Positions 40,214-41,796 of a stretch of 64,000 nucleotides of DNA are shown here, piece after piece. The position numbers and the translations under genes were made by a program. Location of the stretch: the NCBI RefSeq assembly GCF_009914755.1, contig NC_060931.1, one strand, 5' to 3'. The notes below the pieces were generated by a model, which worked only from the letters and a program-made list of their open reading frames with translations, made no database searches and was not told the origin of the DNA. The stretch comes from the human T2T-CHM13v2.0 reference genome, Homo sapiens. The stretch's first letter is position 1. The number at the start of each line of letters is the position of its first letter.

Positions 40214-40980
40214 TCTTCACCCCCAGCCCGTACATGAGGCCAGGGGTCCACACACACACACGTCTAATTTCCAGAAACCTAAATTTCCTGATATTCATAT
40301 CTCGAATCAAAGTGATGATTACTGGGTGACTGCCGTTGAGGCGCTCTGACCTCCTCCTGGTCCCGGACATAGCTGACCCCCGCTCTCCGGCATCCACCGG
40401 ACGCATCACCATGAGCAGGGGTAACACGCGTGTGTCCGAGGCACAAGGGTGGGTGTTGCAGGGCCACACGCGCAAACGTCACAAAAGTCAGCGTTTGGCT
40501 TCAAATATTTCCCAGTGTGGACTGGCTTTTAGTCAACGGGAATGCGGTAACTGTTGGTAACAGAACAACGAGCTGTGCACCAAGCCAAGTCTCTCTTCGG
40601 TGCCACCGGCGGGCGAGGCCGGATTAATCACCGCTGCTTCGGCCGCCCATGTGTCCTGATGTCCTGGGACCCGAACCCCGTGCCCCGTACCTTGCGATGC
40701 TGGCGCCTACGGAGGGCATCCGAAACTGCCCTACAGAGCAGTCGCCGGGTAAGCGGCACCTGCCTTCCCAAGCCATCAGCCCCTTTGGCCCCCTGCCCCA
40801 GGGCCCCACCTCCTGCCTGAGGACTCCAGGCAGGTACTGAATTTGGAGGGGAATTTCAGTAGCCTGAAGACGGAGATAGGTCAGATTTCAAATTAATTGG
40901 TTAACATAAAAGGAGAACAAAGAATCCAGCACAAAATTGGGATGTGAACAGCTACGAGCGGTGGCGAACCCCCCTCAGCA
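40190..40980 (+). promoter_or_regulatory. CpG-rich promoter of LRRC72
   Basis: High GC and CpG density against an AT-rich, CpG-depleted background. Surrounds the LRRC72 ATG. Contains RFX half-sites (GGTAAC), MYB-type YAACNG sites and a CRE half-site CGTCA. Confidence 0.8.
40659..40748 (+). CDS. LRRC72: LRRC72 coding exon 1 ([30 protein letters not shown]), phase 0
   Basis: ATG at 40659 in a CpG-rich region, 30 codons, then donor CGG|GTAAGC at 40749. The peptide matches the human LRRC72 N-terminus as I recall it and splices in frame to exons 2 and 3. Confidence 0.93.
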
Positions 40981-41796
40981 TCTCTGCCTGGGCTAGAGGT
41001 CCTAATCCCCTGGGTGGGGTTTGAGGACTTTCCAGTCCACACCAGTAGACTTACACTGACCTTTTACCACTCAGCATCTGCTGCGTATATAATTATAGTG
41101 GTTTGCAGATTAAGTGAAACGGAGATTAAGTAAATTTCGCAGTCTTGATTCTCCAACAGGGGTGTGTGTGTGTGTGTGTGGATGTGGGTGTGGGTGTGTA
41201 TCCCTAATATATTGTTCCCAGCAAGGGCAAATCAACACCTTGAAGAGAAAACGTTATTTGATGAGCCCTACAAGCAGAGTTGAGAGCAGTTAAGATAATG
41301 ATTAAAAGAATATTTGGATATTTGGGTGGGGAAAAAAAAATCTCAGAATTGTGCCAGGTAAGACCTAGCAAGGCTTTCTGGAGTTCTCTGACTCATCTGC
41401 AAAGATGGGGGGCTGCTGTGATTAAACGAGGCCGAGAGTTCTGTAATGAATTGAAAGCTCTTCACACTAAGTCCTAACTTGTGCCTGCGTGTTGCATGGA
41501 GGTATAAGAATTTATCATCAGAGAGGGCATTTTCTTCTATAGGTTTTAATACTGACCTTATTCTTCTAGGATTTAATAATCCTGCCATTTTCAAACATTT
41601 TTTTCCCTTTGATTCTAGATCCTCAGGCATCGGGTGGTGGAAGAAGCAGCTGCTGTTCTCCCCATGCTAGAACTGTTCACATCCCAATTTTGTGATGGAC
41701 TCTTTTTATTTTCCTTTTAGGTTAACCAACTAATTTGAAATCCGACTTTTCACCCTCTTCAAGCTACTGAAATTCAGGCCTCTAAATTCAGTACCT
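40832..41796. repeat. Imperfect long inverted repeat (arms 40832-40951 and 41673-41796)
   Basis: Hand alignment of arm 1 to the reverse complement of arm 2 gives about 106/124 identical positions, including a 22-nt perfect block CACAAAATTGGGATGTGAACAG. Confidence 0.9.
41161..41199. repeat. (GT)n/(GGGTGT)n microsatellite
   Basis: Directly visible. Confidence 0.85.

What the first reader, a model, noticed from the sequence alone, without database searches (positions are those of the whole stretch)
40832..41796. Unexplained ~120-bp inverted repeat at the start of LRRC72 intron 1
Seen in sequence: arm 1 (40832-40951) and arm 2 (41673-41796) are reverse complements at about 85% by hand alignment, with a ~720-nt spacer, beginning 84 nt after the exon 1 donor. 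I do not recognise the arms as Alu, L1, MIR or LTR. Each arm also has an internal mini-hairpin (TACTGAATT...AATTTCAGTA). Arm 1 begins on a donor-like CAG|GTACTG, and arm 2 contains a strong acceptor-like TCTTTTTATTTTCCTTTTAG (41701-41720). Inference: a long pre-mRNA stem could mask these sites and serve as an ADAR or Dicer substrate. Alternatively it is an uncatalogued foldback transposon or a local inverted duplication. It would fold on an antisense transcript too.
Basis: partly seen in the sequence, partly recalled or inferred. Interest (0 to 1): 0.75.

Follow-up and report, generated by a model that had tools for sequence, protein, structure and literature searches.

The report
Single-copy inverted duplication, LRRC72 intron 1
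A 120-base stretch in the first intron of LRRC72 has one inverted, 85%-identical copy 721 bases away and no third copy was found in the genome; it is likely an old local DNA-copying accident that is predicted to fold the RNA, with no sign found that the fold has been selected.

Summary
The repeat is real. Arms 40832-40951 and 41673-41796 match at 106 of 120 aligned bases plus two 2-nt indels, with a 721-nt spacer. Seven genome-wide searches found no third copy, terminus-only hits did not extend, and there is no target-site duplication. A transposon is therefore unlikely. Arm 1 is AT-rich between GC-rich flanks, while arm 2 mostly matches its surroundings, so arm 1 is likely the inserted copy. 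A second inverted 24-nt match abuts arm 1 in permuted order (p about 0.004 uncorrected, 0.10 with a wide target). That suggests two template jumps, or a ~180-bp circle. Substitutions look neutral: 7 transitions, 7 transversions, no G-U bias. A 109-bp RNA stem is predicted on either strand and would cover both splice-like sites, but the strongest decoy donor lies in the loop. Editing, conservation and splicing could not be tested. Verdict: likely a templated inverted duplication of roughly simian age, a known class of mutation. Low interest.

The parts
40832..40951 (+). Arm 1 (segment X), the likely inserted inverted copy; AT-rich (GC 0.38) between GC-rich flanks
   Evidence: alignment; composition
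41673..41796 (-). Arm 2, the likely donor; composition and pyrimidine skew like the sequence 3' of it
40952..41672 (.). 721-nt spacer; holds a GT microsatellite (41162-41199); no copy found elsewhere apart from that microsatellite
40806..40829 (+). Segment Z: second short inverted match (19 of 24 columns), ending 2 nt before arm 1; suggestive, found post hoc
   Evidence: (I15)
41615..41637 (-). Partner of Z, 35 nt inside arm 2; places Z in permuted order relative to the donor
40952..40969 (+). Weak inward extension against 41655-41672; not significant (p 0.04-0.33 over 16 settings)
40831..40837 (+). Left copy of a 7-nt near-direct repeat at the two ends of arm 1 (right copy 40949-40955); possible microhomology; 7-10% of random segments show the same
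40835..40861 (.). Mini-hairpin in arm 1 (counterpart 41765-41793 in arm 2)
40831..40839 (+). Donor-like CAG|GTACTG, 6 of 9 consensus matches; use would add 85 nt to exon 1 and give a stop after 53 codons
41701..41720 (+). Acceptor-like tract; most pyrimidine-rich (16 of 17) of 163 YAG sites in intron 1; branch-like TTCAC at 41676
41355..41363 (+). Strongest decoy donor of intron 1 (CAG|GTAAGA, 8 of 9), in the loop and not within the stem

Best explanation
The two arms are a single-copy inverted duplication with neutral-looking divergence, likely made tens of millions of years ago when DNA synthesis at the edge of the LRRC72 CpG island switched template and copied about 120-165 bases from 0.8 kb downstream in reverse. 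Shown: the arms, their uniqueness at the sensitivity reached, the lack of a target-site duplication, the composition asymmetry and the substitution pattern. Inferred: arm 2 is the donor and arm 1 the copy; the switch used 2-6 nt of microhomology; a first short jump probably copied segment Z before the polymerase re-primed at an AG and copied X. Predicted: the pre-mRNA folds into a 109-bp interrupted stem that covers both splice-like sites and would be an ordinary ADAR substrate where LRRC72 is transcribed. That fold is taken as a by-product of the copying, not as its purpose.
For: No third copy: DNA searches and patterns with 2-3 mismatches returned only the two arms plus one chr17 hit that ends after 29 nt. 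Calculated miss rate per copy is 0.5% at 8% divergence and 19% at 15%, substitutions only. The 16 other hits to the terminal 18-mer (10 in the control) are unpaired and 0 of 16 extend. No target-site duplication at the outer ends. Arm 1 GC 0.38 against flanks 0.69 and 0.60 (p 1e-5, 0.002); arm 2 0.36 against 0.43 and 0.42 (p 0.34, 0.41). The contrast holds with Z and the weak extension left out (p 1e-4, 0.006). Arm 2 shares the pyrimidine skew of the 804 nt 3' of it. 7 transitions, 7 transversions; 3 G-U on sense, 4 on antisense; no clustering (p 0.50, 0.54). Z match anchored at the junction: 13 of 3000 shuffles, 7 of 3000 random window pieces, 0 of 157 island pieces. The class is described: germline templated insertions with microhomology, a third to a quarter of them multi-template (PMC8421209, section read); ape template switches up to 128 nt that leave single inverted repeats (PMC7954356, section part and passages).
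Against: No orthologous sequence could be examined, so direction, age and neutrality are inferred from one genome. The 0.8-kb template distance is beyond the roughly 100-nt range searched in PMC8421209 (passages) and the 250-bp limit in PMC9435742 (passages). Junction signals are weak: 420 of 4000 random segments show an equal 7-nt repeat, and the Z match falls to 41 of 400 with a wide target and was one of 7 flank combinations tried. With 60-nt flanks arm 2 also differs from its inner flank (p 0.04); the whole 164-nt block against its right flank gives p 0.08. Symmetric divergence cannot reveal covariation. The best acceptor decoy of the intron does sit inside the stem.
Confidence: 0.62

Rival explanations
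1. The donor block 41615-41796 (about 182 bp) was copied as a small circle, closed at an AG microhomology, reopened between Y and Z and inserted inverted 0.8 kb upstream. This gives the order Z-X-(part of Y) from a donor read X-Y-Z.
For: Permuted order with an AG at both sides of the Z|X joint. The permuted alignment scores 217.5-219.5 against 197.5 for the linear one (no null for this difference). Z identity of 19 of 24 is compatible with the arms' divergence (p 0.19). Permuted order is the stated signature of circle-mediated duplication (PMC7188851, first quarter of the text read).
Against: The Y part matches poorly (12 of 18, p 0.02 if it were as old as the arms) and 17 nt are unaccounted for. 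A backward jump on the same template gives the same order with no circle. The Z match is post hoc and not significant with a wide target.
Confidence: 0.12
2. The spacer was inverted by a staggered-break or long template-switch event, and the arms are the duplicated breakpoint.
For: It gives the same present-day layout (inference). It would turn Z and its partner into direct repeats about 63 nt apart. The inner 60 nt next to arm 2 is fairly GC-rich (0.53). Strand skew in the spacer is uninformative.
Against: The spacer end next to arm 1 is the GC- and CpG-richer one, continuing the island shore: 0.60 against 0.43 over 100 nt (p 0.02), though not significant over 40-60 nt (p 0.35). Arm 1 did not gain GC in the same position.
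Confidence: 0.12
3. Whatever its origin, the stem is kept by selection because it hides a decoy acceptor and donor near the weak exon 2 acceptor, or is edited in testis.
For: Predicted 109-bp stem, -151.8 kcal/mol. Mean unpaired probability falls from 0.61 to 0.21 at the acceptor and from 0.20-0.52 to 0.03 at the donor. The decoy acceptor ranks first of 163 and the real exon 2 acceptor scores only 9 of 17. Conserved pairings are enriched on cryptic sites (PMC8052449, passages).
Against: No G-U bias, 11 true mismatches on the sense strand, antisense duplex more stable at -160.5. Longest helix 22 bp. The best decoy donor (8 of 9) is in the loop. Decoys of this strength are common: donors of 6 of 9 or better at 1.5-4.2 per kb, acceptors of 15 of 17 or better at 0.2-0.55 per kb. 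Any inverted copy masks what it copies, so masking needs no selection. Z pairing would cross the main stem as a pseudoknot (inference from coordinates).
Confidence: 0.08
4. The 965-bp unit is an uncatalogued foldback or Mutator-like element with 120-bp terminal inverted repeats.
For: Long inverted ends with an internal hairpin. The age range overlaps the end of DNA-transposon activity in anthropoids, about 37 Myr (PMC2997546, start of abstract in a search listing). No repeat library was on hand.
Against: No other copy of arms or spacer, no paired termini, no target-site duplication, longest stop-to-stop frame 107 aa. The spacer's left end continues the host's GC-rich shore.
Confidence: 0.05

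Closest known systems
Microhomology-mediated templated insertions (MMB-TI / MMBIR), complex class (PMC8421209)
   Same: Inverted copy of a nearby template, short microhomology at the joints, possibly two templates, germline and fixed
   Different: Template about 0.8 kb away rather than within about 100 nt; old and 12% diverged, so the joints cannot be resolved against a reference allele
Short-range template switches in human and ape genomes (PMC7954356, PMC9435742)
   Same: Leaves a single inverted repeat; copied length of the same order as their longest events (128 and 318 bp)
   Different: Their median copied length is 12 nt and templates lie tens to hundreds of bases away; this event is inferred without an ancestral allele
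Circle-mediated (eccDNA) duplication with permuted order (PMC7188851)
   Same: Possible X-Y-Z to Z-X-(Y) permutation in the recipient
   Different: That survey covered segmental duplications over 1 kb; this is about 0.18 kb, local, inverted, and the permutation rests on one 24-nt match
Non-repetitive predicted dsRNAs of dsRNAscan (PMC11838218)
   Same: Would pass their threshold (score 235-259 against 75). 109 bp, 22 contiguous pairs, 721-nt loop, near their edited non-repetitive medians (144 bp, 30, 509 nt)
   Different: One of about half a million such predictions, 4,597 of them edited; LRRC72 is not named in the main text and the full list was not seen
Conserved complementary regions (PCCRs; PMC8052449)
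   Same: Intronic, near a splice site, covers cryptic splice-like sites
   Different: PCCRs are defined by cross-vertebrate conservation, which could not be tested here; within-genome evidence points to neutral decay
Foldback / Mutator-like elements and MITEs (features recalled)
   Same: Long terminal inverted arms with an internal hairpin
   Different: Single copy, no target-site duplication, host-like interior

Membership tests
DNA transposon with terminal inverted repeats (foldback, MULE, MITE) | Terminal inverted repeats | tested here: met
DNA transposon with terminal inverted repeats (foldback, MULE, MITE) | Target-site duplication flanking the outer ends | tested here: not met
   none of 4-11 nt with ends shifted up to 6 nt, apart from a palindromic 4-mer inside the arms
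DNA transposon with terminal inverted repeats (foldback, MULE, MITE) | Dispersed copies or paired termini elsewhere | tested here: not met
   power falls to about 50% per copy at 20% divergence
DNA transposon with terminal inverted repeats (foldback, MULE, MITE) | Match to a Dfam or Repbase family | not testable with these tools
   no repeat library; a 148-kb human pool gave no full-length hit
Templated insertion by template switching (MMB-TI) | Insert is an inverted copy of a nearby template | tested here: met
   direction inferred from composition
Templated insertion by template switching (MMB-TI) | Microhomology at the joints | tested here: inconclusive
   2-3 nt exact, 7 nt with one mismatch; 7-10% by chance
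Templated insertion by template switching (MMB-TI) | Ancestral allele without the insert | not testable with these tools
   no related genomes held
Circle-mediated duplication | Permuted order of donor segments in the recipient | tested here: inconclusive
   Z-X order supported at p 0.002-0.004 (narrow target) or 0.10 (wide); Y part not significant
Conserved complementary region (PCCR) | Both arms conserved across vertebrates with compensatory changes | not testable with these tools
   no orthologues available
Conserved complementary region (PCCR) | Stable long-range pairing | tested here: met
   predicted only: -151.8 kcal/mol, 107 expected arm-to-arm pairs
Conserved complementary region (PCCR) | Substitutions biased towards keeping pairs on the transcribed strand | tested here: not met
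   3 of 7 transitions give G-U on sense, 4 of 7 on antisense; small sample
ADAR-edited intronic dsRNA | Observed A-to-I sites on both arms | not testable with these tools
   no RNA data; structure is in the range of edited stems
Known structured RNA (miRNA, snoRNA and others in Rfam) | Covariance-model match | tested here: not met
   no hit at E up to 1 on either arm

The most novel reading that the evidence does not exclude
A nucleosome-sized (about 182-bp) circle cut from LRRC72 intron 1 was reinserted, inverted and permuted, 0.8 kb upstream at the CpG-island shore in a primate ancestor. The insertion created a new donor-like site and at once the stem that hides both it and the intron's strongest decoy acceptor: a self-masking insertion, later kept because it protects splicing to a weak exon 2 acceptor in germ cells.
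Probability: 0.06. Interest if true: 0.55.

Novelty: new member of a known kind. Interest (0 to 1): 0.2.

Why it matters
As read here it is a clean, old example of how local template switching seeds non-Alu double-stranded RNA in introns, one of about half a million predicted non-repetitive stems (PMC11838218). It would matter more if the permuted order proved a circle intermediate at a size far below the 1-kb limit of the published survey, or if the stem proved to guard splicing of a gene whose mouse protein is part of the sperm central apparatus (PMC12297659, passages). Both are cheap to test with primate alignments and a minigene.

Tried and rejected
Transposon termini: rejected on copy number, target site and pairing tests. 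chr17 hit L040: 29-nt match only, and picked by the pattern itself. Old abundant repeats: blastn and nhmmer of the arms against 28 loci (85 kb) plus 63 kb of the window gave only short hits; the best unselected one was 25 nt in L009 (blastn E 0.001, nhmmer E 5.1). This pool is small and does not exclude an old rare repeat under arm 2. Outward extension of the arms: none; inward extension: not significant. Rfam: nothing on the arms. Coding: no long frame. Strand skew to orient the spacer: uninformative. Recursive splice site at 41720: AG is followed by GTTAAC, a poor donor, in a 5.4-kb intron; rejected by inspection. No genome-wide background rate for unique inverted repeats was measured here; the figure used comes from PMC11838218. 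Literature: 23 papers hold 'LRRC72' (22 listed) and 3 hold it with 'intron'; by titles and abstract starts none concerns this repeat. PMC11838218 and PMC10691357 do not name the gene in the main text. PMC4053454 names it only as a neighbour of an intergenic methylated region. A search for short paired duplications found nothing relevant. PMC5110952 (passages) describes insertions from distant templates and fits less well. Supplements and browser tracks of the dsRNA, PCCR and editing catalogues were not seen and may list this stem. In one search the cassette ends and the loop-donor window were one base off; one search corrects the cassettes. Splice scores are simple consensus counts (consensus recalled), not MaxEntScan.

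Full report
Observation. Arm 1 (40832-40951) aligns to the reverse complement of arm 2 (41673-41796) at 85.5% over 124 columns, E 1.7e-34 in the window: 106 of 120 paired columns identical, two 2-nt gaps, 721-nt spacer. Seven local inverted pairs with gaps under 3 kb were found in the window. Four have both arms, and two have one arm, in the listed masked stretches; this pair has neither, though only the longest masked stretches are listed (and the annotation). Homology stops sharply on the outside. An inward extension of about 18 nt is not significant (p 0.04-0.33 over 16 settings).

Copy number. A DNA search of the whole genome with arm 1 returned only the two arms (2 of 2 candidates). The 1071-nt region returned itself, the arms and 50 hits confined to the GT microsatellite; only 40 of 143 candidates were scored. 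The 3' spacer returned only itself; the 5' spacer was searched only within. Patterns of 23-27 nt with 2-3 mismatches, and the gapped hairpin pattern with 0 and 2 mismatches, returned the two arms plus one chr17 site, which matches for 29 nt only. By a binomial calculation without indels, a copy 8% from the common ancestor would escape the three ungapped patterns 0.5% of the time, at 15% 19%, at 20% 50%. The terminal 18-mer gave 16 other hits against 10 in the control; none lies in an inverted pair and 0 of 16 extends into the arm. There is no target-site duplication and no frame above 107 aa. A transposon family of this age is thus very unlikely. An old, rare repeat underlying the donor cannot be excluded without a repeat library.

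Direction. Arm 1 has GC 0.38 between flanks of 0.69 and 0.60 (100 nt each; p 1e-5 and 0.002). Arm 2 has 0.36 between 0.43 and 0.42 (p 0.34, 0.41); with 60-nt flanks its inner side differs at p 0.04. Arm 2 shares the pyrimidine skew of the sequence 3' of it, and arm 1 has the mirror skew. I infer that arm 1 was copied from arm 2 into the shore of the CpG island. A spacer inversion with a duplicated breakpoint gives the same layout. It is less favoured because the spacer end beside arm 1 is the GC- and CpG-richer one (p 0.02-0.04 over 100-240 nt, not significant over 40-60 nt).

Joints. A 7-nt near-direct repeat lies at both ends of arm 1 (40831 and 40949), but 420 of 4000 random segments of the window and 72 of 1000 local ones show the same. 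A second inverted match is more telling: 40806-40829 (Z) against 41615-41637, 19 of 24 columns, ending 2 nt before arm 1. Anchored at the junction and tested against the 100 nt inside arm 2, it is reached by 13 of 3000 dinucleotide shuffles, 7 of 3000 random window pieces and 0 of 157 island pieces. Against both strands of 1.5 kb it is reached by 41 of 400 shuffles. Six other flank combinations gave 29-419 of 500. It was found post hoc; a correction for 7 combinations gives about 0.03. Read on the donor's minus strand the order is X-Y-Z; in the recipient it is Z-X, then a poor Y-like stretch. Both donor ends at the Z|X joint carry an AG. This fits a polymerase that copied Z, re-primed about 180 nt back and copied X, or a small circle reopened elsewhere. 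One genome cannot tell these apart. The 7-nt repeat and Z are alternative readings of the left joint.

Age and selection. The 14 substitutions are 7 transitions and 7 transversions (K2P 0.127; 95% range of p 6.5-18.8%). Three give G-U on the sense strand and four on the antisense; differences are not clustered. With recalled neutral rates of 1.0-2.2e-9 per site per year the arms split about 29-64 Myr ago, range 15-108; conversion between the arms would make the event older. Nothing here points to selection for pairing, but 14 changes in one genome is a weak test.

RNA. The arms are predicted to form 109 pairs (-151.8 kcal/mol sense, -160.5 antisense, -221.6 if perfect), longest helix 22 bp, and to dominate the ensemble. 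The stem covers the donor-like site (unpaired probability 0.03, against 0.20-0.52 before arm 2 is made) and the acceptor-like tract (0.21 against 0.61). Against it: the donor-like site scores 6 of 9, a level found at 1.5-4.2 per kb; acceptors of 15 of 17 or better occur at 0.2-0.55 per kb; and the best decoy donor (8 of 9, GT at 41358) lies in the loop. An inverted copy hides whatever it copied, so masking is expected without selection. By the published scoring the stem scores 235-259 against a threshold of 75. Such non-repetitive predictions number about 497,000, of which 4,597 are edited, with medians close to this stem (PMC11838218, passages and tables). Editing is therefore a likely by-product where the gene is transcribed. 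A Dicer or Drosha product is unlikely for a nuclear, interrupted stem with a 721-nt loop (established knowledge, untested); Rfam has no match.

Comparison and verdict. It works like a germline templated insertion of the MMBIR or template-switch type (PMC8421209, passages and most of one results section; PMC7954356, passages and part of one section; PMC9435742, passages), at the long end for length and distance. Membership rests on one met feature, one inconclusive and one untestable. It fails two tested features of a transposon. Conservation, the defining feature of a PCCR (PMC8052449, passages), could not be tested. The permuted order recalls circle-mediated duplications (PMC7188851, first quarter read) but rests on one short match. 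No paper on this repeat turned up; most subscription papers and the catalogues' own lists were not searchable. It is a real and tidy feature, most likely a neutral copying scar: a new member of a known kind, interest 0.2.

Noticed in passing
window 41160-41357 (+): Candidate cryptic exon in the loop: an AG at 41158-41159, a UG-repeat tract at its 5' end and the strong donor at 41358. It is 198 nt, in frame, but has a stop after codon 45. The layout recalls TDP-43-repressed cryptic exons (recalled, untested).
   Followed up: partly
window 41358-41720 (+): The best decoy donor and the best decoy acceptor of intron 1 bound a well-formed 363-nt pseudo-intron with a branch-like motif at 41676 and no AG in the 48 nt before the acceptor; no evidence of use was available.
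   Followed up: partly
window 32796-33134 and 33763-34101: A longer inverted pair (344 columns, 75%, 629-nt gap); both arms look like L1 3'-end fragments (recalled, no library check).
   Followed up: partly
window 41850-42560: Pyrimidine-skewed stretch next to arm 2 that looks like an old L2 remnant (recalled); the search of the local pool gave only one weak hit (E 0.12), so this is unconfirmed.
   Followed up: partly
window 40767-40799: Four C-runs just upstream of Z give a G-quadruplex-like motif on the minus strand, a possible stall site near the insertion point.
   Followed up: no
window 46183-46202: The annotated exon 2 acceptor is pyrimidine-poor (9 of 17), below at least 14 YAG sites of the same intron.
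   Followed up: no
window 39029-39145 and 39549-39575: Short direct repeat, 27 nt at 89%, 430 nt apart, with a third 14-nt partial copy (D3 and D4).
   Followed up: no
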